55,042 nucleotides of DNA from Girardia tigrina. Taxonomy: Eukaryota. The position numbers and the translations under genes were made by a program. The stretch spans positions 1 through 55,042 of the forward strand of contig MQRK01209022.1 in assembly GCA_001938485.1 (NCBI GenBank). The letters are read 5' to 3'. Each line of letters begins with the position of its first letter. Positions within the stretch are counted from its first letter, which is position 1. Below, in pieces: positions 1,196 through 54,200 of the stretch. The notes beneath the pieces were generated by a model, which worked only from the letters and a program-made list of their open reading frames with translations, was not told the DNA's origin and did not search any database.

Positions 1196-1569
1196 TTATA
1201 ACAATTGGCGTTTAAGCCAGTCTATACAATAATTTCCACAAAGAAATGTTAGCGGATTTTGATACATTACATGATTATATATGACAGGTTGTTGAATTCG
1301 TTCCAATTTTGTTACCAACATTGATGGATAATACATCCCAAGTGGATCGAATACTCGTATAAGATCTGAAGTCACATGTACTGCAATCCAGTGTTCTCCT
1401 GGTAAATTAGCAGTCTGAGTATTAATTACATATCCTCCATCGAGTAGAGAATCTGGAACTTTATCCAGCGAATATACTCCACGGAATTGAGGATATCCTT
1501 TCAGTGCTTTTTCAATCTGATATGTACTATATATGTAAATATAAAAGGTTTAGATACAACTTACTTCAT
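1196..1569 (-). CDS. Adenain-type (Polinton PRO) cysteine protease, 111 aa, two exons (1569-1565, 1526-1196), intron 1527-1564
   Basis: Spliced product: MNTYQIEKALKGYPQFRGVYSLDKVPDSLLDGGYVINTQTANLPGEHWIAVHVTSDLIRVFDPLGMYYP...YNHVMYQNPLTFLCGNYCIDWLKRQLL*. Catalytic H (GEHW), D (FDPLG), oxyanion Q and C (CGNYC) are all present. The ATG is only reachable via the 38-nt GTAAGT...ATATAG intron. Confidence 0.88.
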
Positions 1570-1615
1570 ATATTATTTCTGTTCGTAATTGATTTTTTCA
1601 GTTCCAATGCCGTGT

Positions 1616-1705
1616 TTATACAATAACTGTACCATCTTTTCGTATTTGTATCTCACTATCAAATACTCCATATACATACATTGTAATATCATTATCTAAT
1701 GCCTT
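1616..1705 (-). pseudogene. C-terminal remnant of Polinton/adintovirus major capsid protein (double jelly-roll), 5'-truncated at ~1706
   Basis: KALDNDITMYVYGVFDSEIQIRKDGTVIV* matches the Polinton MCP C-terminal pattern (AL...IT..VY..F...I.I......V). It lies immediately upstream of the protease on the same strand. Confidence 0.7.
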
Positions 1706-2294
1706 ATGGAGGGGTGGTCCAGTGGTCCAGAACTCTCATTTTCCCCCTACTATTACTGGGAAAGTATGAGAAAAAAATGTAACAGAATGGATAAATTCTT
1801 GTCAAATATGCGCAACCAGAAAAAATACTGGAACAAAGACGAAAGTTCATTTGTGTCCAATGCCAGTATTTTAATCTCATGTTTCTTTCGATTCGACACT
1901 CGGATTGCTAACAAGAACGAAGCAGAGGACGGCTCAGATGACATTGACACACGACGAGATCATTCCAAGACTCCCGAGAACTTGCACGACAATCAACCAA
2001 TACAGATTAATGTAGATCGACATCCCTTTAATCCAAAAAACGTCGGCATATAACGTTAACCAAAACGGGCTCCCAAAACCAATCACATAGAACATGAGCG
2101 ATACAAAAAAAACAGATCAACGATTAGGAGCACATGCACAACGTCTACAAATTGTCTGAATCTCATCATTTGAACCAAGGCCGGAAAATATTTATTTTTA
2201 TCAACAAAAACAAATCGATCCATCCACTCAAACAAATCTCAGCCGATAAATCGATAACAATATTCGAGAATTCGTCGTTTTCGTTGACAAACAA

Positions 2295-3611
2295 ATGCGA
2301 ACTGACAATGAAGAGGCACATAGTTGTCAGCTGATATGTCGTGTCGACGAGATCGAGCTCGAGACCGATCGACGAGCGATTTTTGTCGATCGGGTTCGAT
2401 TGAAAAATCGACGGGAACGGTTTCCATTTGACAGCTTTTTGTCGGCCCATAACGGACGCCAGTTCCCGGAACTGATCGAGTCATTGGGACAAGCGCCTGG
2501 TCGATTGCACCGGACACATACGGTAAATCCAAGAGAAAAAATAAAAAATTATGTAACAAATTGCCACGGAATAACCCAGGAATTAGTTTGTGGACAGATG
2601 GGCGAGTATACAGCACTCGCGGAAATCCATCGCCACTTACAAGGCAATATTTTGGTAGGAAAAGATGTTCAGCTCGAACTAAAAGCATGTGCCATTCCCA
2701 TCAATTCATTAATGGATATTAGAGACACTTCAGCGGGAAAAGTGTTCGAAGAAAAATACAACCTAATAAATCAGAAAGGGCACTTTTATTCCTTGAAAGC
2801 CCTATTTCGAATAGTACTTCAGGAGGAGATACAACAACATTACCACTCTGCAATTCAGGATGCAAAAGCCGTTTTACAAATTTTCCTAAACGTGGAAGCA
2901 GATTGGACGGACACCATAATCTTTAAGGACACCCGCAGTCTTTTAGGATCTCCAAAATTTTCGAGAGCAAAAATTCCCGTAGAACCCGAAGATGTACAGA
3001 ACCTGCAAATAAATTATCCACCGTCTGTAACGATAGACCTTTGGATAATAGAAAAGGATACCACTCCACGAGCCGATATAAGAGGCATACCAAATGATTC
3101 TAAAATAAAATCCACTTCGAGATGGATTGCAGACATACCAACTGAGTCAATCCATGCAAATTTGGGGAGCCCTGTAATTATTGACCTAATGGAAGATGAC
3201 GACCTAGAATTGCATGCACCTCTTGATCAAGAATTATTACCCGAAGCACCATCTGTCTCTGCATTAGCCGCCTTTTTGCAAGACGAACAAAATGTTCAAG
3301 GCTTTCAGTCATTTATCGTTAGAACCTTTAAGGTTCCAGACCCAAATCCAACTTCCTTAATGTATGCGAGGGCACTACATAAATATCGTCCCGAGGATAG
3401 ATGCTCACCCAATTGTTGCGGTTGGAAAACGAGAAATAAGAGCAATTTAAAACACAAACGAAAAATGAAAATTTTATTATCAACAAATAAGTCCGGTGTC
3501 GTTGCTGAGATTCCATTTGGTGCTCGTCCTGGCACCCAGAGAAGAGTTTGCAATCCTAACAAGAAAAAATTAATTAAAAAACGCGACAAAAAACGAATAA
3601 ATTACCGGTAA
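2295..3611 (+). CDS. DEDDh 3'-5' exonuclease, REX4/ISG20-like, with long acidic then basic tail; N-terminus atypical
   Basis: Residues from ~2515 read VNPREKIKNYVTNCHGIT...LQGNILVGKDVQLELK...IRDTS...YSLKAL...LQEEIQQHYHSAIQDAKAVLQIF, following the REX4/ISG20 pattern (P...V.DY.T..SGI; ILVGH...DL; IRDT; SLK.L; IQ...HS..EDA.A). No clear ExoI DxE motif. Intronless. Confidence 0.75.
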   Translation: MRTDNEEAHSCQLICRVDEIELETDRRAIFVDRVRLKNRRERFPFDSFLSAHNGRQFPELIESLGQAPGRLHRTHTVNPREKIKNYVTNCHGITQELVCGQMGEYTALAEIHRHLQGNILVGKDVQLELKACAIPINSLMDIRDTSAGKVFEEKYNLINQKGHFYSLKALFRIVLQEEIQQHYHSAIQDAKAVLQIFLNVEADWTDTIIFKDTRSLLGSPKFSRAKIPVEPEDVQNLQINYPPSVTIDLWIIEKDTTPRADIRGIPNDSKIKSTSRWIADIPTESIHANLGSPVIIDLMEDDDLELHAPLDQELLPEAPSVSALAAFLQDEQNVQGFQSFIVRTFKVPDPNPTSLMYARALHKYRPEDRCSPNCCGWKTRNKSNLKHKRKMKILLSTNKSGVVAEIPFGARPGTQRRVCNPNKKKLIKKRDKKRINYR

Positions 3612-8099: not shown

Positions 8100-8514
8100 C
8101 AGCGGAAAGTAATTTTTGCTTAGTCTTTGAGGAATTTATAACCGTCCCCCAGAGACCCAACATTTTGTATCTATCTGTGTTTTATCAGCGACGTTCATCC
8201 TATATCCCATTTATCCGCGATGAAGACTCTTTTATGCCTCTCTACGATATTGATTATCTTTGGTTTATCAGCGATATGCATTGTATTTTTGGCTTTCTGA
8301 AATCGTGCCTCGTCTGTCACTTTCCGGTAGAATCTTGCTGCTAAATTACTTACCTGAAAATTTCGATCGAGTATTTCATCGTTTTTCTTTTTCCAACATA
8401 ACTCAAATCCGAACTCACTCTGAAAATTTATCCCGCCTATTATGTCTGGTTTAATGTCAGTTACAACTATAAACGCTATATTTCTCTGTTTGTCTTTGAT
8501 ATTTACATTCACTG
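8100..8514 (-). pseudogene. Ty3/gypsy pol remnant (end of protease to start of RT)
   Basis: VNVNIKDKQRNIAFIVVTDIKPDIIGGINFQ...HKRVFIADKWDIG*TSLIKH. It continues the protease frame at 9784 once the insertion is removed. Confidence 0.8.
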
Positions 8515-9783
8515 TGGTCGCGCTGCGATAGCTTTCGACCCTTTATTTGTAATTTAAATTAAATTAATAAAAATTAAATAATTAAAATGAAAGTAAAATT
8601 AAATCATTTAAATAAAATTTAAATTAATTAAATTAAATAAATATATATAAGTATATATATAAATAGATATGTGAAATCATCACGTTCATATGGTTTTGTG
8701 ATGATGCAAATGCCATATGAATTCCGCTTTCGATTCTTTGCGGTTTTTTCTGTTCTTCGGTTTCGGTTTTAAAAAGCAGCACAACTCAATGCCATCTTGA
8801 AAAACGTTTTAGAAATTTCGAACGATAATATTCAATAACTGTTCAGAAATTCCTCCATTTACCAATTAATTGTGAATATTATTCATTTAAAAAAAATCAA
8901 ATAATTGAGTCACGTGATTTGTTGTGACATCAATTTCCTTTGTCTCTTCGGCAGATCTGATTGGCCGCATGCGTTATCGAATCGTTGCGAGAATTCGGTA
9001 ACAGAGATTATGATGTTTTATTTTTGAATTGTGACGAGTCGCGATTTTGTTTGCGTTGTGTGTCACAGTTTTTGTTTTTGATTTCAAATGAAATTTTTTT
9101 TTGATTTGCTCGATAAAAAAGTGTTTTCTGTAAAAAGAAATTTGTGAGAGTGATTACAATTTAATAAAAAATTTCGTTTTTGATGATAAAAAATAAAACT
9201 GTTTTAATGATGACTAAATGCTTTTTGTCGAAATATTGTCTCAAAATTGGAGAATAATTGTAAAGTAATTTATTACGAGGTTTCATTTGAGATGGAAGAA
9301 TCAATAAACAAATTGACAAATATAATACAACTTCTGTGTGAATTTGTTCGAGGATGTGATAATCGATTTGCAGTTGAGCGTGAAGGTCCAGCACTGTGCA
9401 GAGTGACATGGAAACTTTCGGAGAATTGCAATCATGTTTTATTGCTTTTTCGGTCAAAATAACTCAGTGCTACACGTTGATTGTGATGTACACTCAAATG
9501 AATTATTTCTGAACCTACGGAGAAAGATCGAATCACACTGGCAAGAATTATTGCAAGATGATTGCCCCTTAGAATTATCAAAAGAAAAACGTGACAGAAT
9601 CAATAATTTTTTAATGAGATTAAAGTGTAAATTTTCTGAATGGCTGTTCAACAACAATGATGTATCTATCGATTCAAATGAAAATTCAAATGATCCCGAT
9701 GTCACCGAGAACCTCGACAATATCGCCCGTAAAATGGGAAGCAATCAATCAAATAATAAAAGAACCTCTGCTGAGATACAACA
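8515..9783 (+). mobile_element. 1269-bp TG...CA insertion (solo-LTR or non-autonomous element) with 5-bp TSD CACTG, carrying a frameshifted ORF (~9247-9780)
   Basis: CACTG occurs at 8510-8514 and 9784-9788; termini are TGGTCG...ACAACA; AATAAA lies near 9755. Excision restores the gypsy protease frame ECIGKISV|NVNIKDKQ. Confidence 0.8.
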
Positions 9784-11347
9784 CACTGATATCTTACCAA
9801 TACATTCTAGTGGACTATTATTAACACAGTGTAATTTAATATCTGCTGCTTCCAATTTCACATCATGTAGTTTGCCAAAAATCGTCTTGCTCATGACGTT
9901 CACTCTAGCCCCAGTGTCTAATAAACAGTACTCCTTGATATGTTTTATCTTTACTTTTACACATGGTCGACCTTGCATTTTGTTGTATGCGATATTTTCA
10001 GCTTTCCATTTTTCTATGGTTAAAATCCTGGTTTCTTCGCTAGTATTTCTGTTCTCTACTGGTTCAACAAAACATTTTCCACAATTATCTCCGTATACAT
10101 CTTTTTTTATAAACTTCCGAATTTTATCATTTACGTTCCATTCTACTGCTTAAATATTTTCTGATTTGTCATTCATTACGTCTATAATATCTGTTATACT
10201 ACTTTTACTATAAATACCGATATTTTTGGAGTCTTATATTTATTAATTTATTGCCCCGACTGGCTCCACTTCTGTCGAGGCTGTCTTTTGTGTGATCTTC
10301 CTCCATTACCGATTCTTCATATTCTCCTCTTCAATGTTCGCTACTCATCCTCTATTGTCTCCTCTTCTTGTCGTTGATTGTAACACCCTCCTTGATAATT
10401 GTTATTCGTTGATCTTTGTTGGTTTATTCTCCCGTTTAAGTTAGTGTAACATTCGTCCTTCCCATGACCTCTATTATGGCACCGTTTACATTCGATATTC
10501 GGACAGTTTCTTCTTACATGTCCCTGCTGTCCACAACCATGACATTTGATTTGTCTCCTTTCTGTACAGTTTTTTCTAATATGTCCCTCTATTCCACATT
10601 CGAAGTATTTCCTGGTCTCCCGTTGTCTATTTGTTACGCTTGAGTATTGGTTTCTCTCCCAGTTTTGATCAGTAGTATATCAGTTCTTTTCCGTGCCCCC
10701 GACTCTTGTATGCTTATGTTCAAATCTATTATTACCTTGAGTCACAGCATCATTGTAGCTCCTGGTTCTGTTCTGCGTTCCGTTCTCTCTCACTACGTTT
10801 ATCTGATCCTCTATATTTTTTATTTCATGTATCATTTTGATCTTTTCTTTCATTTGTTCTACTACTTTTACATTATTCATCCGAACTTCTTTTTTGATAT
10901 CCATGTCATCACAACAGTTCATTAATGATGTTTCCATTATGCTTTCTTTTAGCGTGTTATGTTACATAATTCTTTCTGCCATCTTTTCTATTTTTTCGAA
11001 AAAACTTCATCCTATACCGGCAAACTTCCGACCAATCCTCAAATAGCAAATGTCCTACCAAATGCTTTTCGAAGTCGAGTTTTATAACCACATATGGACT
11101 TGTTAACGGTCTTATATTTTCCCTTTATGTCTCTGTCCAACAGACACAAGACAATGACGTCTTGTTTCGCTTTTGCCACTCCCGAAAATTGGAAGAATGT
11201 TTCATATTCTTCTATGAACTTCTCCACATTGTCACCTTTCCTGAACTTTTCAGGTAGTAATTGGTTCGTGAAGTTGTCCAAAGCAGCGTTGTTCGCTATG
11301 TAAGTAGGGTTTATGCTACTTTCATTATTATCAATTTCCGGAGTCAT
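9784..11347 (-). pseudogene. Ty3/gypsy gag (three CCHC zinc knuckles) and aspartic protease, frameshifted
   Basis: Gag N-terminus LLPEKFRKGDNVEKFIEEYETFF; knuckles YFECGIEGHIRKNC, CHGCGQQGHVRRNC, CKRCHNRGHGKDEC (~10450-10610); protease motif CLLDTGARVNVM. Confidence 0.9.
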
Positions 11348-12398
11348 AATTTAACACCACAAAATTTATTAATATCAGCAATTCACATATTTAAACAAAT
11401 TTCTTGTTATTTCAATTATTTCGACCAAAATTAATTTATTAAATTTTGAAAATTTAGGAAAGTTAAACTTTAAAATATACTTACATTTTTTTACGAAAAT
11501 TTTACGAAATTTAAACCTTAAAATAATTTTACATTTTTACGAAACTTTATCATAAAAACTATTTAATTTAAATTTACAATAAACCCTTTTATTAAAAAAA
11601 ATATTTCTTAAACTATTATTCCGTTAATTATTTATTTTAAAATTTATTTGAACTTATTTCATAACTTTTATTAAAATATATCAATTGTTATTACTTTAAG
11701 TATATTTTAAATAAGTATTTATTTTATCATATTTTTACTCAACATTTTAATTTTTCAATTTATTTCATTGAAATTTTAAAATTAAAGAACTATTTTGGCT
11801 TAACTTAAATTTAAACTAACCCCTCATACAATGAACAGATTTGTCAGTTCTTCGGCACTGCAAGAATTGAGAAATATCTTAATGTGATAGCGTCTCAGCA
11901 GACCGGGATCAATCGATATACTTAAGTGTAAAAATCTTTGCGGACGTTGTGCAAAAATGATGCGAATACCTTCACTTCAAATATTAAGACATAAATTCAT
12001 TTTTAATATTTAAAAACAAATAATTCACTTTTCTCCAAAAAACGAGTAACCATTAAATTTAACTCTAAGCTGAATAGAAAGAACTATTTCACTAAATCAA
12101 TTAATAAAAATACAATTTGGAGTTCAACTTTGAAAGGTCAAATGTCAAAAAAAAATAAAAATCCTGTAATTAAGAATTATAAAATCTTTAAATAAATAAG
12201 ACGATCATCATATAAGTTTATTTTAAATCTCACGTAATTTCAAACAATTTTTAAGCGAAATTTAATACAAAAGTCAATAATTAATTTAACATCGCTTGGA
12301 AGTAACAATTACTAATTCAAAACATCACGAATTAATTTAATTGTTAATGGTTGACAAATAAAATCACATCCCGTTAACAAATCAAGAAATGGTCATTA

Positions 12399-12890: not shown

Positions 12891-13999
12891 TAAAAATCTA
12901 TCTATATACTATATGCTGTTTTAATAAGTAATGCAATAAGGCATAACTTCAAAAACAATTAACATTTTCCTATCAAAACGCGCTTCTTCCTTCAAAACCA
13001 AAAAAAACAGAATGTTGAAACAAAAATTCATTTCATTTTTCCATTTTCCTTTTTAATTAGATATATCAAATAAATTGAAATATCTAATATACAATAGTAA
13101 ATTTTCGGTACCCTAAATTATTTTTAAGATCTTTTTATACTTAAGTATAATAATATCATTACAAATTTGCCAACATTTATAAATTCTTAATTAATTTAAA
13201 ATTACTAATTAAAAATTTCCTATGATATACGAGAACGATATTATTATAGATTTTTATTTAACTATGTTAATGATTTAAAATAGTTGGTCGACCCTTTTAA
13301 GAAGGATACAAAGATTATCTTAATCCGAGACAGAACTTTTAAGCTTAATATTGTGTACCACAATAAAATAAAAATATATCTTTTCCTTTTTTGCTAAAAT
13401 TGAATTTTGGTCACTTATATATTTGTTTCACAAAGAATTTTACAGCTAAAAAACAAAAACAGAGTTGTTTTAATAAATTAAAGCAAAAAATTGAAAAAAT
13501 ACAATTTTTTATGGAGTTTCGAGTTTTATCTTGATTATAAATTGAATCGTTTCAAGCAACAATTATCGTAATAATGTAAAGATTTCTTTTCCTCGTTCTC
13601 GCATTCTCGTCACCCTTTTAGAACCGACCATATCGTTCGCGCTGGCGACCATCATTTATAGGACGACAACATCTGTGGAAACAGCCGATCTTCCGCCACA
13701 TTATGACCGAGTTATTCATCTCCCGTCAGATTATGATTGGACTATGCCCGCCACCAATTGGCGCGCATAACATCGATATCAGAAAGACAACGACCATCCG
13801 GTTCAGCCGCCCAGCTTTTGGATCTCAGTGCATTCCATTTTGGAGTAAATTTTTTTCTTAAATCATTTAATTTACGGGTTTGACTATGTAACTTTTGTAA
13901 ATAATCACTCTTAAATCATTTTAAAACATAAGAAACACAAAAACGAAAATAATCAATACTGTAGAAATAGATACTCTAGTTGGCTAAGTCAAAACGAAT

Positions 14000-25769: not shown

Positions 25770-28700
25770 TGTGTACCTTAGATCCTTTAAAGATATTAAG
25801 CCCGAGGCTTTTTAGGATGATGACGTATTTATGCCTTCATACCCATACACCCAACTGTAGACTTCCCATCTCTTTCAATGGTATTGAGCCAAATGCTCTT
25901 CAGAGGGTCCACCCAAACTAAAGTCCTTAGGGCCCCCCGATAGGCCTCCTACGAGGTCAGCAGCTTTCCGCCTCTGAGTAGTCGGTTTTCCAGTGACGAA
26001 TGACCAACCATGGAACTTGGTACCATGGCCATACATGCATTTAGCTGTTACGGTGGACGCGTGCGTAACAACCGCGAAATGGACACTGCAATCTTCCTTT
26101 TGCCTTTATGTCGGGTAATCGGTAGTCTCTGTGTGTTTCTCCGGCGTATTGTTTGTTCTGGGTCCCCGACATACTCCCAGTTGCGTCCAGAAACTGAGAG
26201 TTCGATTGGATTGTTGTCGGCTCTTTCTCTTCCTCTCTTATCAAGTTGTCTTCTCTCTGGGTGTTGCATTGCTCTGGTTCTTCTCGGTGATTCTTCTGTA
26301 AGTGGATCTTCAGCCATCCTGCGCAGTTGTATTCTTTTGGACAGTGAACGCACTTGTATACTCCTTTCTTCTATCGTGGCTGGGCTGTCTTCTGTCTGTT
26401 CTGCTCCAATATGATCCCGATGGAGATGTTTGTTCAATTCTTTGATCTCCGCGAATTAACGATAGCAGTCTTCCATCGGGAAGCTGTGTTCTTTGAGTCT
26501 TGGGAGAATTAATCGCATCGTGTTCTCATCTCCTCTCTACACTTTATTTAGCTTGATTACTTTCTCTATTCATGCCTCTGTTGTTAGTAGACTTACCTGC
26601 TGAATGTCTCTACAAAAATCATTAATGCTATACTGAACTTTGAAGAGCCAGTGCATGTCGACCATGAGACATTCATCCAGATGTTGCTTCCATTGTCCGC
26701 TTATCTTCCCTCCGATAAGTTCGCATTTGTAGATTTGCTGTACCACTCCTGGACATTCATTTATCTCGATCTTCACATTGTGAATAATTCTTCTTCTTGA
26801 TAGTATATCCATTGGACTTGGTAGTCCAATGGATAAATCGTTCATTCTAATCCTCTCAGCCTTCGATATTCCCAGCGTTCTTCTGGTACACAAATTGTGA
26901 AATGCTTTAAACTTCTTCGCGTGCTCTACGTTTGTCCTCCAGTTTTCACCACGGGAATATACAACTTGTGATGATGTTCTTTTCGTTTCGGAGGGACAAC
27001 TTGTTGTTCTTCAATACAGGTCTGATCGTTCTCAGCTTAATCGTTCCTTTCTTAATTCTGGCTTTGATGTCCACTCCTGATCCTTCTCCCTTCTCGATAA
27101 TCGAAGCAAGGTAGCAGAACTCGTCCACCCATTCTAAACCTGTACTCCAATTCCTTGAAGGCAGTCCCAAAGAATCTTCCTGGGCACGCTGTCGAATGCC
27201 TTTTAAAGGTCGATAAATATTGCATACACGTTGATATTGCAGTATCTGGCCTGTTCTTGCACCTTTCTGATGATGCCAATCGCATGTGCTGTTCCTCTTT
27301 TGGGCCTGAACCCTAATTGACTGTCGTCCAGTATCTTCTCAAGGTGTGGCATTAATCTGTTTGCAATGATTCGTGCCATTATCTTACCTCCTACATCGAG
27401 TAGAAAGATTCCTCTGTAATTGTTCAAATCCTTCTTTGAACCTTTCCCTTTATATAGGATTACAACTTTCGTTGTTTTCCATGCCTCTGGGAAGTCTGCT
27501 ATTCCCTCCCAAATTTGCTCGAAGCATTGCTTGATCTTGAGAGTTAACTGTTGTCCACCCATTTGTATAACTCTGGGATGATACCATTGTTCCCAGCAGC
27601 TGTGCCGTTCTTGAGTTGATTTATTGCGGTACCCACTTCTTCCACGTCCGGTAAAATGTCAATATCCAAGATCTATCTTTGATCTGCAATCACGACAGTC
27701 TTTTTCACTCTTCCTGAATAGATTTGAGAAGGGCTCTGCTAACACTTCGTCTACCAAACTACTCTGTAATGTGCAGAGAGTTGATTCTTTTAGTTCGCTA
27801 TTGCATAGGGATCTGAGTTCTATGTATGTGTCAGAGGTTTTCCTTATGCACTCTGTTCAGCACGCCTGTCCGATGTTCTCTATGCTTTCTCTCTTCTATC
27901 TTCTCAACTGCCGTAATGTATTCAGTCGCGAAGCTTTCCATTTGGCATACGTTTGTTCGCATCTATTCTGGATGAACTCCTTCCTTCGTTTCCATTCCTC
28001 CTATAACAACGTCTTCAGTTCATTTAGGTGATTGTGAAGCCACCTTTGATTGAGCTGGATTTTCTTCTTTCGGTATTTGCTAGCTGTAGAAACAACTACT
28101 CTTTCTAAGTCGTCCGAACTCTCAACATTCGGACAGGCCTGTCCGATGTCTCTACTAATTGTGTCTTTGTTGTTCATCAGAGAGAATCAGTTACCCTTTC
28201 CTTTGCACTTCTTCCTTCCATCATTAGCAAGCTTAAGTCTTTTCTTGCCATCATTTTAACCCATAAGGTCAATACGACTAAATCGTGATCCGATCCAGTC
28301 AAAGTTTGAATAAATCTTGATATTTGATATACTGTTGCAGCGGCTCTTTTGTGTTAAAAACAGATCCAGTAATAAGCGCAGCTTCGTTGCTGGGTGTGTC
28401 TAACTAGTTCTCCGCGCCAGTTTGTACTTGTAAAAGGTGTTATCTACTCGCAAATTACATGCCTCTGTGAGATCACCATTCTCCAATGTTGCTGTTGAAC
28501 TAGTGTACCACCATCTGTTCTTCCTCTTCCTCTGTTCTCTTCCGTCTGATAAAGCCTACAGTTGAAGTCATCTCCAACTAACAGTTCATATTTTCTGCGC
28601 TCAGCTTCAACAGTCGCCTTCTCCACTTGTTCTTGTAACGATACGAACAACTCCTCTTTCTCCTCACTTGGATATCTACTGTCCGTTGATGCATATACCC

Positions 28701-29250
28701 CTATCAATGATAGTAACCTTTAGGGTATATGGCACAGGAATAGTCTTTCACTGACAGCTTCACATTCCACTCCCTTCGAGTCAACAGATCGTACGATAAG
28801 GGTAACAACTCTCTCACTTGTACTACCACTATGATGAATTATCCATTCCAGTATGGAAGCAATATCGTTTCCAATACAGAGCGTCTCGGTCAGGATGTAA
28901 ATATCAACTTTAAGTTTGACAAGTATACATATGATGTTCAGTATCTTTTCGTCGGTTAAGCCTCTTACCTTTCATGTTCAAATCCTCAGTCCACTGCAAG
29001 TGGAATCCTTAACTAGGGATCCCCCTCTTGGGAGCTTAATGACTTCGAGTCCTGCCAGACCCCTAGTTGGAGTTTTCATAGCTTTGGACTAGCGAAAGAC
29101 AGAGTTGCTAGCATCTTCAATCTGCTTACTCATATAGCCTAGATCAAAGAAACCTCCGCAATCTATTTCTAGAAAGGGGAAGAACGCCTCTCTCTAGTTC
29201 CCAGAATACACCACGGAGGCAAGCAGCATTGTATCTCCAACCCAACTGTA
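25770..29250 (-). mobile_element. RTE-like non-LTR retrotransposon (APE endonuclease + RT + C-terminal C2H2 fingers), internally deleted and frameshifted
   Basis: APE motifs LRI.T..VRGL, VDIYILTET, AVSERL, IGVYAST, GDDFNCRL, GSDHDLV. RT motifs LYKGKGSKKDLNNYRGIFLL, QLGFRPKRGT, AIFIDL, VDEFCYL. Zinc fingers (C)PMEDC...LNKHLHRDH and CPFRGC. Confidence 0.92.
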
Positions 29251-29344
29251 AGAGTTTTTACACCAATGAAAATTAAATTTATAAGCTAGTTTATGTTGCA
29301 ATCCCCCAAAAGGTTTTCAATTTATTTCAGAAGAAATTTTGAAC

Positions 29345-29645
29345 TATGGATGTTATTGAAGCCACTTTGACACTACTTATATTCTTGAAAATACCCATGT
29401 TAAATATTTTAAACCCTTCTGAATATGGTATTTCGATTAAATGTTTGTAGTTTTCAATGTTTTATCTACTCTTTTATCTACCTTTTTTATCCGTTTGTAT
29501 ACATAATTGGTTCAATGTAACTACACAACATCACATAGCTTTTGTGACGAAAAATACAAAGATAGTATAATAAAGGGCTTATTTAACAAAGTTTGGAATT
29601 TATCTTCAAATTTTGAAATTGTAGATATATTCTTTAAATATTCTG
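29345..29645. mobile_element. Two short Penelope fragments in opposite orientations
   Basis: Plus strand SFCDEKYKDSIIKGL.NKVWNLSSNF resembles SLCDHKYNKSLVKGLIHRIFNLSSDF at 16433. Minus strand LIEIPYSEGF resembles the RT-EN linker. Confidence 0.55.
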
Positions 29646-29709
29646 TTTTAAATATATTTTTGACATAAAACAGTTTTTTATCATTTGTTCACGACTGATA
29701 TTGAAGGTT

Positions 29710-38980: not shown

Positions 38981-40169
38981 TCCAAAAAACAGACTGATTT
39001 TGATACATTACAAATTAAAGATATAAATATAAACTAATATGTATCCAAAACATTATTATTATTATTTCTGACAGGTCGTGACTCAAATTACTGATTAATT
39101 TAATGAAAATATTAATTTATTAATGTAGTGTTTTATAAAAATATATAATAAAATCATATTATAATTGTACGTACATTTGTATCTGGCACTAAAATAGCCT
39201 TACAGACAAGTAAATAAAGCATCAAACTAAAGCAAGATTAAAAAAAATTACAAAGATAAGCAAAGCTAAATTTATTCATAACCAAAGTGATTTCAACAAT
39301 TTCCTTTAATTAGTAAAGTTAGATATTTTGATTTTTTAAGTGGGCGAAGCAATAATAAAAAATTTTAGTTTTTTTATCTTTCGTTGAGAAAACTTTAAGA
39401 ATTATTATCAACAATTTTATAGTTTTTTTATCATGACAATTCACTAAATTATTGAGGAGTTGTTAGGTAAAAATTTAAAAAATTTTCTGAGAGGTTTTAC
39501 CACATATGTAACTGGTAAATACTGGTAAATACCAAGTTGATACTTCTGTTAGAGTGATTATGTAAATCAATAACCAATGTGTGAATTGAAGACTATATTA
39601 ATAGCTAACCATTAGAGATATTTTAAAGGATAACCGGGAAAAAAGATCATGAAAAAGGATAACATATTATTAAAAAATATTAATGTTTTTTGGTAAAAAA
39701 TTGAATAACTTTTTGTAGGAAATGAAATTATTCGTGATTTTAAATAACAAGTTAATGAAAAAACAATATGTAAAAGAAAAAATATATTCAAAATAAATCC
39801 CAATTGTGAGGAATATTTTAAATTTTGTATGTTGATTTTAGTATTTGGAAATGTGTTTCTCCCACCCAGATTGGAAATTTATATTTTGGATGTTCCCGAT
39901 GAATAGCGTAATACCACCAGAGATACAATTTTTAATTACATACTTTGTAATAAAAGATTCACTTCAAATACGCAAAAAAAAACAAATTTTGAGATTCTCA
40001 TATTCTTTTTTGTTTATTACTGAATTGTCCTTATCTAAATATACAATTTATCTGTAACGCTACTTTAGATCTTATTTTGAGTCGATTGTTTTCGAATTGT
40101 CCGACAGAAGGGAGCATCTGGGCCCATAGAGATGATCCCTCACACAATCAATGACAGATCCCATCGTCT

Positions 40170-40360
40170 TGATCGAATTTTGACAACACCACCGAACAAT
40201 TCGGAATCAACACCAAACACGACACGAACAGATCCACCAAATCATCCCTGATGTCCATCTTATCGATCAGACAGTCGTAATAGAAACACAATTCATCGAG
40301 AATCTTCTCTCGAATTCTAGATAAATGTTCTCGATCGATCGACTTAAATTTTGACGTGTC
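40170..40360 (-). pseudogene. NCKAP1: Fragment of Nck-associated protein 1 / Hem (WAVE complex)
   Basis: KFKSIDREHLSRIREKILDELCFYYDCLIDKMDIRDDLVDL...SVVLSKFD aligns by eye with the NAP1/Hem region EIIKSLSLYY.TFVDLLDFKD.V.ELL...IVLSRVED, with an internal deletion. Confidence 0.65.
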
Positions 40361-40484
40361 TGGTGCAAAACAATTAATTAGAGAAATATTTCGATCAAAT
40401 ATTTCCCATGGCAAAAACCGATCAAAAGGCGTGCTGCATCATGTTAAGGCCATAACGGCGCATGATAAATTCACCGAGGATCTA

Positions 40485-40649
40485 GAATCCGATGTCACTT
40501 TAGATGTCAAACCCGATGTCCTCAATGGCGTGCCCGATGAACAGACTCGTGTTAGAAATGCCAGAACATTTACGCCAGCTAAAAACGCGATGCAATCTGG
40601 AACCTCTTGCACGAGGAATTGGAGAATCGAATTCGATCAGCAAGAGAGA
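40485..40649 (+). pseudogene. NDUFS4: Fragment of complex I subunit NDUFS4
   Basis: GVPDEQTRVRNARTFTPAKNAMQSGTSCTRNWRIEFDQQER versus the conserved [41 protein letters not shown]. Similarity stops abruptly before WENPLMGW. Confidence 0.9.
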
Positions 40650-40994
40650 GATGTTCGAAACAAGTCGGAAACGATAATGACGAAAATATCGGACGACAAA
40701 CGTTGGGGCTCACCTGACGTCAGTGAGATTGATAATTTAAGCCCCCGCGTCCCGCAGTCCACCCCACAGCTCCAAGACGCCGCAGCCATCAAGCTGCGCT
40801 GGCTCTCGCACCACCAGTTATGATCCACGTAAATTAACAAAGACGGATTTATATCAATGACAGATTATCCATGATATTAAATTATTCGTTAAGACAATAA
40901 TCAGTTTCTGGAAGATCAGCTTCTCGTTTGAATGCGACTTCCTGTAGTTCAAAATCCAGGATATCGAATCCCAGATATTATATTTTCGATATTA

Positions 40995-42240
40995 TATCAC
41001 CTATCGATGAAATCATTGATTTGTGTGAAAAGATGTGGGAGGACAACTCTGTGAATAAAATAATGAACAAGCAAGCACTGAAAGAACTTCATAAATTTTG
41101 TGCCAAAAATGTGCCTTTTCTTTTTAATGATGAGTGGTACATTCAGGAAGACGGTGTCGCAATGGGTTCCCCATTAGCACCAACTTTGGCATCAATATTT
41201 ATGAAGTCGCTTGAGGATAAAATGAATGCATNNNNNNNNNNNNNNNNNNNNNNNNNNNNNNNNNNNNNNNNNNNNNNNNNNNNNNNNNNNNNNNNNNNNN
41301 NNNNNNNNNNNNNNNNNNNNNNNNNNNNNNNNNNNNNNNNNNNNNNNNNNNNNNNNNNNNNNNNNNNNNNNNNNNNNNNNNNNNNNNNNNNNNNNNNNNN
41401 NNNNNNNNNNNNNNNNNNNNNNNNNNNNNNNNNNNNNNNNNNNNNNNNNNNNNNNNNNNNNNNNNNNNNNNNNNNNNNNNNNNNNNNNNNNNNNNNNNNN
41501 NNNNNNNNNNNNNNNNNNNNNNNNNNNNNNNNNNNNNNNNNNNNNNNNNNNNNNNNNNNNNNNNNNNNNNNNNNNNNNNNNNNNNNNNNNNNNNNNNNNN
41601 NNNNNNNNNNNNNNNNNNNNNNNNNNNNNNNNNNNNNNNNNNNNNNNNNNNNNNNNNNNNNNNNNNNNNNNNNNNNNNNNNNNNNNNNNNNNNNNNNNNN
41701 NNNNNNNNNNNNNNNNNNNNNNNNNNNNNNNNNNNNNNNNNNNNNNNNNNNNNNNNNNNNNNNNNNNNNNNNNNNNNNNNNNNNNNNNNNNNNNNNNNNN
41801 NNNNNNNNNNNNNNNNNNNNNNNNNNNNNNNNNNNNNNNNNNNNNNNNNNNNNNNNNNNNNNNNNNNNNNNNNNNNNNNNNNNNNNNNNNNNNNNNNNNN
41901 NNNNNNNNNNNNNNNNNNNNNNNNNNNNNNNNNNNNNNNNNNNNNNNNNNNNNNNNNNNNNNNNNNNNNNNNNNNNNNNNNNNNNNNNNNNNNNNNNNNN
42001 NNNNNNNNNNNNNNNNNNNNNNNNNNNNNNNNNNNNNNNNNNNNNNNNNNNNNNNNNNNNNNNNNNNNNNNNNNNNNNNNNNNNNNNNNNNNNNNNNNNN
42101 NNNNNNNNNNNNNNNNNNNNNNNNNNNNNNNNNNNNNNNNNNNNNNNNNNNNNNNNNNNNNNNNNNNNNNNNNNNNNNNNNNNNNNNNNNNNNNNNNNNN
42201 NNNNNNNNNNNNNNNAACATGTCCAATAGTTGTATAAAAA
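40995..42240 (+). mobile_element. 5'-truncated Penelope-like element (RT; mostly in gap)
   Basis: PIDEIIDLC...NVPFLFNDEWYIQEDGVAMGSPLAPTLASIFMKSLE. Sequence resumes after the gap with AACATGTC, which fits the 3' end of a pLTR hammerhead (GAAACATGTC). Confidence 0.85.
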
Positions 42241-42293
42241 AAGCTTTAATCAAATTATATTTTCGAAATACTAAACTTGCGTTCACAAGACTC

Positions 42294-42335
<42 letters not shown>

Positions 42336-44111
42336 GCACGTTTAAATTTAGCCGATAAAATAAAGTTAACTGTCTTTGCCTGATCAATTTATTATTTATA
42401 CTAAGAGCTGTACCTCGCAAATAATGCTTTCATGTATTGTCGGCGGATCGAAGCTTCGGCAGTGAGACCTGATTGTCGCGTGTCTTGTCTTGGGCGGCCG
42501 GATACTGCAATGCACCAAAGGGAGCGCCGATCGCCGACTCACAAATCTTACCGTATTTTGATGGCGTGTAAGAAATTCTGAAGGGGCTGCAATCATACAC
42601 GAAAGTAATTTTGCCACAGAAGTTGGAATTGACCGCGTGTTGTCACCGAAGTTCGCAACTCCATCGTGTCATTCTCGGCAAATCGGTTGCTTGTCGTCTT
42701 GACGGATCATCGATGTTGAAATTCGATGAATTGACAGACGAGTTGTTGTGGTGACTGTTCATTGACATAAATCCAATGGTTTCATGAAAATGTTCTCTTC
42801 GTCGTTTCGAATTGTTATTATTGTTACTATTGTCGCCGATATTATTCGAATTCAACGGTTTATTTTGATCGAAAAACGTTGGATGATAGCGTTTTCTCGT
42901 CGAACGATTTATTTTATTGGTGTTGGTCGATAAAATTATCGATTAAAGGAAATCAAACATTCACAACATAAATTCAAAGAATTATTATCAACTTCATATC
43001 GGTTTAGCGGAAACTTTTTCGTTAAAAGTTATATAATTATTATAATAGAAAATTTGAAAAATCGAAAAATTTATTTGTGAATATTTAAAAAAAATTTTTA
43101 TCGATGTTTTTTAATTAACTTTTTTTATTTACATTTATAAAGTTTTTAATGCTCTAATGTTGTCAGATAATTTTTTTTAATTTTAAAAGTGAAAGAAAAA
43201 GTAAAATTGATTAATATTAAAATTTGTTAGTTACTGGGCACTACAATGTGGTACCTCGTATAAGTTACTTTTGGGAAGTATTTTAACTACTGTTTAACAG
43301 TTTTAATCAATGTCTTCAACTGGCCGAGCAGCTTGTAATTTGCTTCAATAAAACAAGGAAAACGATTTTAAAAGTATTTATTTTCACTAAACACGCTTTT
43401 CAAATATCCCTCAACTAACAATATTCAACAAAATCTAATTAATCATTATAATATTAAATAAATTATTGCCAGAAAATAAGATGATATCAGAACAAAATAA
43501 AATTTATTCAGGACCCAAGAAAGCGCTTTGAAACATTAACAAACAACAGGACGAATATGAACAACATAAACTTGAATTTTTTTATTCCACCCTTTTGGTA
43601 TTTAAACTGATTGTCTCTTCTAAATCCATTATACTCTTCACTCCCCATAATATTTTGTTTATTAACCCCTCCGAAAATGTTTTGAAAATAATTTTGTTCG
43701 TTATTTTTATTCTCTTTTATGGACTTTTGTAATAAAAACCTCTTATCTTTTTCAGTATTTTATTGTTAATAATAATAGTTTTTTGGTGTTTCTATGTTTG
43801 TTACATTTGTTACAATTACAAATCTTGTTAAATTTTTTATATTTGTTAAATCAGTTAAATGTTATACTTGTAAATCTGTAAAATCGGTTAAATTTATATA
43901 ATGTAGATAAATTAGGTTAGATTTATTTGTATGTACAAATGATCTTAACTTTTTCATTTGTTAAAGAAAAAATGTCATATGAGCCGATCATTTAAAATAA
44001 TAGAAAACGGTATATAATAACAGAAATTAAATTAATCAATAAAAAATATTTAGAGTTATATTATTCATTACAATATATTTGCTTAAAGATATATCAAATC
44101 AAGTTATTATA

Positions 44112-52611: not shown

Positions 52612-54200
52612 GGTTCGGTAGCACCCCAAAACCGTGAGAGACAAAACAGTGAAGACTTATATAAAATATTTATGGTATAAGATTCAATAATTTCATTCCA
52701 GCTGTTTATATTTTAACACGTAATCGTCCAGAGATATTTGGAACACTAATAAAAAAATGGAGCGGACGTTTCTTTCATCTAATCTAGTTTATTTTACGAA
52801 AGATTCAACAAATCCAAGATTTGAAGAAAAGTTATAATTCGAATTCTGCAAATTCCGGAATTAGGTTATATTGTTTCGAGTTCATTTTTGGTAGAATATG
52901 TAATTCAAAAACTATAGGATGATTTCGAAGAAGACCCTTTAAAATTAAAATAAAAGAGAAATTACTGAAAAATGTAAATAGAATTAGATTTAATTTCAAA
53001 TTGCGACTTTTTAATTGTGATTGCAAAAAAATGAATTATAATATACAAACAAAACTTATTGACAAAAAACTGAGTTAATTTTGTGATAAGATTTAATTAT
53101 TAAAAATATGTAATTAATTTAAAAAAGCTAAAAATTTTGTTTTAATAAGAAACTGAATAATGCGAATGTAACTTAAATAAAGAAAATGGGTGATGAAAAT
53201 ATATGTTGGTTTTATCGAATTGATTGTTCTTCTAATATGAATATTTTCATGGAATATTTTATACTTGGTTGTTTGCACGATCGGGCTTCTTCATGCCCGA
53301 AATAAGATCACCTTTTGTCGGAATCTTCCCAATATCGACAGGCGAGATGGCCGCCTGCGTCATCGTTATCGAGAGCCATCTCGACATAGTAAGTATTTAT
53401 TCGATTTCGATCGTTCGCGGGGCCGCTCGCGACAGGATTCCCAGGTTAATGAATGGAAGAATACTCTCGGTGAAGTCAGTTAGTACCGACGTCCGCAATT
53501 ACTAGCAGCCTCCCTATTGCAGTCTGGTAATTGCAATTGATTTTAATAAAATTTATGAGAAAAATATTTTATTCCGAAATATTTTTCAAAATAACTTTGA
53601 AAAATTTCGAGAATTTTGTTTTACTTTTCTCAATTCTGTCATTTTAAAAAACCAAACGATGATTAACGGCGGTAGTTCCTATGACTCGTTTTTACCGGCT
53701 TCTCAACCGATTTTTCAATCCGTTTTCACGCAACCGGCTGTTTCTTCGAATTTTATGCCGAAATCAGTTTTTGACGTCACTCAAAATTCCGGCTTGGATC
53801 CGTCCTTCCGAACTCGGATGCTATCTCGGACCAAACGGGGTACATCTAATGACGACAAAACCTTGTAATGGGAAGACACGAGAAAAAAAATCGGCGTTAC
53901 AGACCGCGTTTTGAGCATAAAATTTGGCACTGTTACGATGCTGTAAGAAAAAGAATTCTTAAAACGAATCATTCGATTGAGGGATGGCATCGAAAATTCA
54001 GATATTTACTGGGAACGAGTCATCCAAAAAATATAAGTGTTAATATAATTTTGTCTGTTTTTATTTATTTTTGTTTATATGCTATTTTCTGATTATTATT
54101 ATTCACGGTTTTGTCTTCGAGGTTTTGACTTCAGAGGTTTTGTCTTTCGATGTTTTGTCGTCGAAGTATTGTCTTTCGCGGTTTTGAGTCACCGGTTTTG
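52612..54200 (+). mobile_element. Mutator/MULE element remnant (TIR-like ends, transposase C-terminal fragment, foreign internal segments)
   Basis: Left end caaaaccgtgagagacaaaacagtgaa; right end tandem ttcg(a/c)ggttttgtc array (54102-54200). RRYRPRFEHKIWHCYD...KTNHSIEGWHRKF..LLGTSHP at 53868-54035 is a MULE C-terminal motif. Confidence 0.7.

What the first reader, a model, noticed from the sequence alone, without database searches (positions are those of the whole stretch)
40070..40995. Mosaic of unrelated host gene fragments (NCKAP1 minus, NDUFS4 plus, others) joined to the 5'-truncated end of a Penelope RT
Seen: within ~900 bp there is an NCKAP1/Hem fragment on the minus strand, an NDUFS4 fragment on the plus strand, a GC-rich piece (~40740-40825) and further unidentified pieces, running directly into Penelope RT sequence. 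No introns are visible inside the pieces. The NDUFS4 piece sits in a 155-codon chimeric ORF (40356-40823). Known: retroelement RTs can switch templates, and giant Penelope-type elements in bdelloid rotifers carry captured genes. Inference: serial template jumping (or templated break repair) shuffles 100-200-nt mRNA pieces into chimeric ORFs. Similar patches recur at 1706-2520, 13590-13850, 42390-42950 and 53260-53860, suggesting a genome-wide process.
Basis: partly seen in the sequence, partly recalled or inferred. Interest (0 to 1): 0.75.

Follow-up and report, generated by a model that had tools for sequence, protein, structure and literature searches.

The report
Host mRNA mosaics inside Bel/Pao LTRs
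Most of this gene-fragment mosaic is two broken, back-to-back end repeats of Bel/Pao retrotransposons that carry stacked pieces of host genes in frame with the element's own ubiquitin-capsid gene; the pieces were likely picked up from messenger RNA by that element's reverse transcriptase rather than by Penelope, and they likely lend it a host start codon.

Summary
The tiles are real but mostly not a Penelope product. The NCKAP1 piece (40087-40331, minus) and the NDUFS4 plus GC-rich piece (40334-40816, plus) are the 3' parts of two long terminal repeats (LTRs), each repeated widely in the genome. [quoted passage not shown] One full-length element has two 97%-identical mosaic LTRs around a ubiquitin-Gag-RT-integrase Bel/Pao core. 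The NDUFS4 tile lacks its parent's 41-nt intron exactly. Pfam hits to cargo are all sense (16 of 119 sense ORFs, 0 of 147 antisense). The cargo frame usually runs through the LTR end and PBS into ubiquitin and Gag. So the 'chimeric ORF' is a relic of the element's N-terminal leader. No Penelope RT lies near 62 other tile loci. Only a 182-bp spacer (a 54-nt repeat tile and an 89-nt TNFAIP8 tile) could be a Penelope jump or repair patch, and its join to Penelope was not seen in two DNA runs. I found no paper describing protein-coding cargo inside Bel/Pao LTRs; two unchecked notes of this scan report it in another genome.

The parts
39806..39905 (+). Left end of a very high-copy repeat of undetermined type (context only)
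   Evidence: Matches in L014, L030, L078, L095, L117 and others; very high summed contig depth
40082..40086 (.). 5-bp flank of the NCKAP1-bearing LTR; the same 5-mer recurs at 40331-40339, so this LTR may once have been inserted into the NDUFS4 LTR (inferred, could be chance)
   Evidence: Sequence; family end defined
40087..40139 (-). 3' terminal module of LTR family T2, ending in CA
   Evidence: 97% to L024 over 40087-40188; 13 of 30 pattern hits carry the 3-nt spacer plus PBS start, control 0; exact 5-bp TSD located for 5 of 20 distinct ends
40140..40331 (-). NCKAP1 (Hem) cargo of that LTR, internally deleted and truncated at its 5' side
   Evidence: Parent L051; full copies start about 85-95 nt upstream of the parent's ATG
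40334..40355 (+). Start of the surviving part of LTR family T1 (tail of an unidentified cargo piece and a subfamily-specific deletion join)
   Evidence: Shared with L002-L005, L008
40356..40647 (+). Spliced NDUFS4 cargo; exon-exon junction at 40442|40443
   Evidence: Parent L036 has a frame-restoring 41-nt GT-AG intron that the window and the aligned copies lack
40648..40816 (+). Linker and conserved GC-rich 3' end of LTR family T1, ending CCA; coding in the Gag frame in most copies; the window copy is frameshifted in the C-run near 40741
40284..40823 (+). 179-codon stop-to-stop frame: relic of the LTR leader ORF, shifted out of the Gag frame near its end
   Evidence: L001: 27/25/177 open codons by offset
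40820..40873 (+). 54-nt tile of another repeat family, possibly the site the T1 LTR inserted into (inferred)
   Evidence: 98-100% to 5 loci
40888..40976 (+). 89-nt internal coding tile of a TNFAIP8-family gene, sense; flanked by 14-nt and 22-nt AT-rich linkers
   Evidence: 94% to C241763, which hits PF05527; identical over 86 nt to contigs of X1 and X2
40999..41231 (+). 5'-truncated Penelope-like RT fragment, followed by an assembly gap (41232-42215)
   Evidence: 92-96% to many copies that extend upstream; the Penelope label rests on the RT motifs as I recall them; Pfam gave only RVT_1 E=0.007
42216..42334 (+). Probable 3' terminal repeat of the same Penelope-like family with a (TA)n tail; joined to the RT only across the gap
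   Evidence: Found downstream of, or inverted upstream of, the RT in L055, L060, L066

Best explanation
The mosaic is mainly two truncated, back-to-back LTRs of Bel/Pao retrotransposons whose LTRs carry stacked, sense-strand pieces of host genes in frame with the element's ubiquitin-Gag gene, likely captured from co-packaged mRNA when the element's RT switches templates. SHOWN: LTR anatomy; cargo in both LTRs of a full-length element; exact intron loss in NDUFS4; sense bias; read-through frame from cargo across the LTR end and PBS into ubiquitin ending in GG. INFERRED: the right half of the LTR is the transcribed leader (U5). While copying it from the PBS, RT jumps to a host mRNA, often runs to its 5' end, then jumps back, so the newest cargo sits 5'-most with its own 5' UTR and ATG and older cargo survives as shrinking pieces behind it. 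Only captures that keep the frame open can still make Gag. A host deubiquitinase would cut after the GG and free Gag from whatever precedes it. LTR-LTR recombination then scatters the mosaics as solo LTRs. At this locus two such LTRs lost their 5' halves by deletion or repair, and the Penelope copy and spacer are later or separate events.
For: TSD with at most 1 mismatch in 12 of 14 solo T1 LTRs by script, the other 2 exact when the start is re-read by eye, and 7 of 7 solo T3 LTRs. PBS after the T1 end at 18 sites, control 0; polypurine tract before the T1 start, control 0. Full-length C254813: LTRs 1856/1870 bp, 97.3% identical end to end, TSD on both sides; core with ubiquitin, DUF1759, RVT_1, Peptidase_A17, integrase. 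T2 and T3 ends also lead into ubiquitin-Gag in 4 of 8 regions fetched. Intron loss. Pfam hits in 16 of 119 sense ORFs (14 families, 7 over the curated cut-off) and 0 of 147 antisense ORFs from 19 LTRs. The PBS frame is the longest open frame at 41 of 65 T1 ends. Ubiquitin is in the PBS frame in 8 of 10 distinct T1 places and ends RLRGG in all 10. SMC+NDUFS4, small GTPase+NDUFS4 and phosphatase+NCKAP1 chimeras read in that frame from a Met near their start. Phosphatase fragments: 38 of 41 hits are N-terminal-half pieces. Left-half cargo traced to a parent is internal coding sequence with frameshifts (Sec16).
Against: Intron loss was shown for one gene only; for other cargo the parent was not found or had no intron in the span. 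The frame bias is not significant for T2 (11 of 22) or T3 (10 of 19), ubiquitin was out of the PBS frame in 2 of 2 T3 copies, and LTR copies are related, so the T1 p-value (9e-7) overstates independence. Only 4 of 8 T1 places are stop-free from PBS through ubiquitin. Some right-half cargo is internal rather than 5'-terminal (L136). Transcription start, poly(A) site, translation and cleavage were not observed. The 5' bias could come from selection for a start codon rather than from RT running to the cap. The order of events at this locus is not resolved.
Confidence: 0.82

Rival explanations
1. Penelope RT built the whole 40087-40998 mosaic in one insertion by jumping serially from its own RNA to host mRNAs and LTR-containing transcripts.
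For: The mosaic abuts a 5'-truncated RT copy. The 54-nt and 89-nt tiles are young, short, in the same orientation as the RT and joined by AT-rich linkers. The TNFAIP8 tile has one match in the assembly.
Against: The large tiles exist as many LTR copies without Penelope. Both keep exact LTR ends, which an RNA jump would have to hit twice. One is inverted. In X1 and X2 the listed contigs holding the TNFAIP8 tile run on into TNFAIP8 and the Penelope join has no cover (a filter hole is possible).
Confidence: 0.07
2. Only the 182-bp spacer is a Penelope 5'-junction product or a templated break-repair patch; the rest is LTR-derived. This is compatible with the best explanation.
For: Two short tiles of unrelated origin with 14- and 22-nt linkers lie directly before the truncation point.
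Against: The tile-to-tile join exists in X1 and X2 while the Penelope join was not seen, which suggests the tiles predate Penelope. The 54-nt tile may simply be the LTR's insertion site.
Confidence: 0.35
3. The cargo entered the LTRs at the DNA level (gap repair, Helitron or MULE-type capture) and the intron was lost afterwards by splicing of the LTR transcript.
For: An intron inside the leader could be spliced out during a later round of retrotransposition. Only one intron was testable. A CCAAT-box module in the LTR looks like a host promoter (motif reading is mine).
Against: 0 of 147 antisense ORFs hit Pfam against 16 of 119 sense, including left-half cargo that shows no sign of needing an open frame. 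Ends and TSDs are not those of Helitrons or MULEs.
Confidence: 0.1
4. The local arrangement is an assembly chimera.
For: Fragmented assembly with a 984-bp gap beside the site; the Penelope join and the 40087 join are not crossed by listed contigs.
Against: Three internal joins are crossed by contigs of X1 and one also by X2. The LTR-cargo architecture is seen at dozens of other contigs.
Confidence: 0.05

Closest known systems
LTR-mediated retroposition by template switching (PMC5131818; passages read)
   Same: Partial mRNAs, several parents per element, further rounds of transposition; one mosquito case involves a BEL element.
   Different: In the Drosophila cases the retrocopy replaces part of the internal ORFs. 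Here cargo sits inside the LTR itself, is duplicated in both LTRs, spreads as solo LTRs and is fused in frame to ubiquitin-Gag of elements that keep their coding core.
Bel/Pao LTR retrotransposons
   Same: DUF1759 Gag, RT, Peptidase_A17, integrase order; TG...CA LTRs; 5-bp TSD; PBS; polypurine tract. All 120 listed RT relatives carry PF05380.
   Different: ORF1 appears to begin inside the LTR; ubiquitin precedes Gag (0 of the 120 listed relatives show PF00240, proteins up to 2000 aa only); LTRs vary from about 0.6 to 2.6 kb with cargo.
Cassandra, Helenus and Ajax TRIMs (PMC10886601; passages read)
   Same: Host-RNA-derived sequence is a stable part of the LTR and is thought to serve the element.
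   Different: There it is one fixed 5S or tRNA promoter in non-coding TRIMs; here it is a changing stack of protein-coding pieces in coding elements.
BARE-2 and Veju abnormal template switching (review PMC13317346; passages read)
   Same: Template switching put foreign sequence into an LTR.
   Different: Single events with another retrotransposon or an unknown donor, not recurrent host-gene capture.
Terminons / Penelope-like gene capture and planarian Burro elements (PMC6431247; passages read)
   Same: Retroelements carrying host genes or domains; Burro ORF1 includes a ubiquitin/SUMO-like motif.
   Different: Terminons end in a hammerhead plus telomeric repeat; Burro is gypsy-like with domains inside a giant ORF. 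Neither matches the ends or cargo position here.

Membership tests
LTR retrotransposon | Direct terminal repeats with TG...CA ends and a short TSD | tested here: met
   Full-length C254813 and C211211; solo LTR TSD counts. The window copies are 3' fragments only.
LTR retrotransposon | PBS after the 5' LTR and polypurine tract before the 3' LTR | tested here: met
   reversed-pattern controls 0. The polypurine tract was tested for T1 only; the priming tRNA was not identified.
Bel/Pao superfamily | DUF1759 Gag, RT, Peptidase_A17 region, integrase, in that order | tested here: met
   on L198 ORFs; for T2/T3 (Gag and ubiquitin for T2, Gag, RT and integrase for T3)
Bel/Pao superfamily | RT groups with Bel/Pao in a tree | not tested
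   No tree built; the 120 best-listed RT relatives all carry PF05380
Bel/Pao superfamily | Canonical Cys-His motifs in Gag (feature recalled) | tested here: inconclusive
   Pfam gave a CCCH-type finger below or near cut-off; canonical motif not checked
LTR-mediated retrocopy | Intronless copy of a spliced parent | tested here: met
   NDUFS4; one gene only
LTR-mediated retrocopy | Microsimilarity at the switch points | tested here: inconclusive
   Both parents of a capture join were never in hand; a 255-nt internal deletion in TACO1 cargo lies at a 12/13-nt repeat
Penelope/Terminon capture | Cargo bounded by Penelope terminal repeats or a hammerhead-bearing 3' end | tested here: not met
   No Rfam hammerhead in 6 loci; no unusual fold of the GC-rich end, z=-1.3; no Penelope RT near 62 tile loci
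Helitron or Pack-MULE | TC...CTRR ends without TSD, or long TIRs with about 9-bp TSD (features recalled) | tested here: not met
   TG...CA ends, 5-bp TSDs, no inverted copy of the terminus in the loci

The most novel reading that the evidence does not exclude
A Bel/Pao clade has outsourced its translation start to the host: it keeps swapping the 5' ends of cellular mRNAs into its leader during first-strand transfer, uses the borrowed UTR and ATG to translate Gag, and sheds the chimeric N-terminus at a captured ubiquitin, leaving the genome strewn with promoter-bearing solo LTRs that encode shuffled host-domain ORFs.
Probability: 0.45. Interest if true: 0.85.

Novelty: new variant of a known kind. 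Interest (0 to 1): 0.66.

Why it matters
Gene capture by LTR elements is usually described in the internal region, at the cost of the element's own genes. Here the LTR is the carrier, so each capture is duplicated, survives as solo LTRs and comes with a likely promoter and an open frame: a route to exon shuffling at scale and a source of RNA homologous to host genes. A ubiquitin spacer that makes Gag indifferent to its N-terminus would explain why capture is tolerated, and it is testable. In practice these LTRs give many false gene fragments in annotation (44 of 45 NDUS4 hits in this genome are fragments).

Tried and rejected
Penelope 5' jumping for the large tiles: rejected. A tRNA-like or telomerase-like CCA 3' end: rejected once TSD, PBS and polypurine tract were found; fold not better than shuffles. 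Helitron and MULE: ends do not fit. Further intron tests failed: TDG and SMC parents not recovered, the phosphatase gene L300 did not match the cargo, HR1 search gave no match, Sec16 and TACO1 parents had no intron in the span, and the 49-nt Sec16 gap is a deletion. Selection on cargo protein: pN/pS 0.48 against the parent (mixed with the parent's own lineage) and 0.7 among 18 copies, so not conclusive. Gag search among longer proteins found nothing. RNA runs X22 and X23 laid nothing on 40860-41040; X8 and X10 are small-share runs and were not used as evidence of expression. Contig depths were not used as copy numbers.

Full report
Observation. The region holds an NCKAP1-like piece on the minus strand, an NDUFS4 piece on the plus strand, a GC-rich stretch, a 182-bp spacer and a Penelope-like RT that begins at 40999 and runs into a 984-bp assembly gap. 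Fourteen other copies of the RT continue upstream of 40999, so the window copy is 5'-truncated. The reported ORF is a 179-codon stop-to-stop frame; 40356 is a GTG and the first ATG is near 40590.

The large tiles are repeats. 40334-40816 matched all 40 scored of 1616 first-look candidates (top hits 93-94%), and the NCKAP1 pieces behaved alike (760 candidates). Copies of the NDUFS4 repeat end at the same base, window 40816. That end is shared by elements with other sequence upstream.

They are LTRs. Longer stretches showed a conserved left end at variable distance, with TG...CA termini and 5-bp duplications. Of 22 left-right pairs, 14 were solo; 12 had a TSD with at most one mismatch by script and two (L013, L017) match exactly when the start is re-read by eye; the other 8 had a PBS or a polypurine tract. 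The right end is followed by a PBS-like motif at 18 sites (control 0) and the left end is preceded by a polypurine tract (72 overlapping matches, control 0). C254813 holds a full-length element with a TSD and two LTRs 97.3% identical end to end, cargo included. Its core hits ubiquitin, DUF1759, RVT_1, Peptidase_A17 and integrase; all 120 listed RT relatives carry PF05380 and none shows ubiquitin. The NCKAP1 cargo occurs in two sister families. T3: 7 of 7 solo copies with TSD, 7 of 13 pattern hits with the full PBS. T2, the one in the window: 13 of 30 pattern hits with the spacer and PBS start, exact TSD located for 5 of 20 ends, the rest not located in short loci. Four of 8 regions fetched behind T2/T3 ends showed ubiquitin or Gag.

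RNA origin. The single full-length NDUFS4 gene (1 of 45 family hits) has a 41-nt GT-AG intron whose removal restores the frame; the window and the aligned copies join the exons exactly. This was the only intron I could test. From 19 LTRs (15 T1, 4 T3; other T3 copies found were not scanned), 16 of 119 sense ORFs and 0 of 147 antisense ORFs of at least 42 codons hit Pfam at E<=0.001, in 14 families, 7 of them over the curated cut-off. NDUFS4 and NCKAP1 cargo in the fullest copies begins about 50-95 nt upstream of the parent's ATG, and 38 of 41 phosphatase hits are N-terminal-half pieces. Left of the CCAAT-box module, the Sec16 cargo is an internal coding stretch with frameshifts.

The chimeric ORF. 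An earlier unchecked note on another genome suggested read-through into ubiquitin-Gag, so I tested it here. At 65 T1 ends the frame that continues into the PBS was the longest open one in 41, against 12 and 12; copies are related, so this is not 65 independent tests. T2 (11 of 22) and T3 (10 of 19) lean the same way without significance. Ubiquitin lay in the PBS frame in 8 of 10 distinct T1 places and in 0 of 2 T3 places; all 10 T1 ubiquitins end RLRGG. Four of 8 T1 places were stop-free from PBS through ubiquitin. Of 15 copies chosen for having long frames, several show stacked host pieces in one frame from a Met near the start, with newer 5' pieces replacing the start of older ones (labels other than Pfam hits are my recall). 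The window copy is shifted out of this frame in the C-run near 40741.

Penelope. BLASTN and TBLASTN with the RT found nothing in 62 loci (about 1.5 kb each side, a few places repeated) that hold the NDUFS4 tile, the NCKAP1 tile or the T1 end, and the mosaic matched none of 19 Penelope loci. Rfam found no hammerhead in 6 loci. The spacer holds a 54-nt tile 98-100% identical to another repeat and an 89-nt sense tile of a TNFAIP8 gene. Contigs of run X1 cross three internal joins and X2 one. In both runs 40979-40992 has zero depth and the listed contigs with the TNFAIP8 tile run on into TNFAIP8. A filter hole is possible and X1 may be the assembly's own sample, so this is a weak hint that Penelope came later or that this join is private or misassembled.

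Mechanism. Shown: LTR anatomy, cargo in both LTRs, one exact intron loss, sense bias, frame continuity to ubiquitin-Gag. Inferred: the right half is the leader; RT switches to co-packaged mRNA while copying it, often to the mRNA's 5' end; in-frame captures are kept because Gag needs them; a deubiquitinase would free Gag (cleavage after ubiquitin's GG is established knowledge, recalled). The 5' bias may reflect selection for an ATG as much as the jump itself. Locally, two LTRs lost their 5' halves; a shared 5-mer at both ends of the NCKAP1 piece hints at nested insertion but may be chance.

Comparison. PMC5131818 (passages) describes the same switching but with retrocopies replacing internal ORFs in Drosophila. 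PMC10886601 (passages) describes small-RNA sequence in TRIM LTRs. PMC13317346 (passages) cites BARE-2. PMC6431247 (passages) covers Terminons and Burro. PMC13477047 and PMC3485330 (passages) did not describe cargo within LTRs in what I saw. Ten searches (listings only) found no paper on protein-coding cargo inside Bel/Pao LTRs or a ubiquitin-Gag leader. The library lacks most subscription papers and Repbase, and I read no supplements; those of PMC5131818 could list cases inside LTRs. Two notes of this scan report the same architecture in another genome; they are AI notes, not independent evidence.

Verdict. New variant of LTR-mediated gene capture; interest 0.66.

Noticed in passing
window 42431-43245: Copy of another repeat whose relatives have inverted TG...CA ends and 5-bp TSDs (4 of 4 complete relatives, at most 1 mismatch); CpG-rich cargo unidentified; the window copy has no matching TSD.
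   Followed up: partly
window 13351-13960: LTR-like repeat (TSD candidates in L163, L164) cut at 13844 and joined to a 96-99% identical high-copy repeat from 13847, ahead of a Penelope-like endonuclease ORF: a second LTR/Penelope-like join.
   Followed up: partly
window 52940-53860: Repeat with a second repeat nested at 53531-53795 (96% to L170); ends not defined.
   Followed up: partly
window 1196-3611: An ORF resembling a Polinton/adenovirus-type protease (my recall, no Pfam hit) lies next to a 453-codon ORF with an RNase_T exonuclease hit; 1706-2520 matched none of the fetched loci.
   Followed up: no
L029 (C238180): A solo NCKAP1-bearing LTR sits with a clean 5-bp TSD inside a 28S rRNA gene copy.
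   Followed up: yes
L138, L139, L140, L151, L152: The ubiquitin ahead of Gag is preceded by the tail of a second ubiquitin whose GG is altered, as if captured from a polyubiquitin mRNA.
   Followed up: partly
L147; L212; L229: Short or tandem derivatives: two LTR ends about 940 bp apart, and LTRs with both a polypurine tract before and a PBS after.
   Followed up: no
L023, L030: LTRs with a T3-type left end and a T2-type right end around the same NCKAP1 cargo, suggesting recombination between families.
   Followed up: partly
G000: 10 of 15 TNFAIP8 hits are N-terminal fragments of a paralog, probably further LTR cargo.
   Followed up: no
window 8195-11350 and 26000-29650: Decayed gypsy-like and RTE-like elements on the minus strand (labels from recalled motifs).
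   Followed up: no
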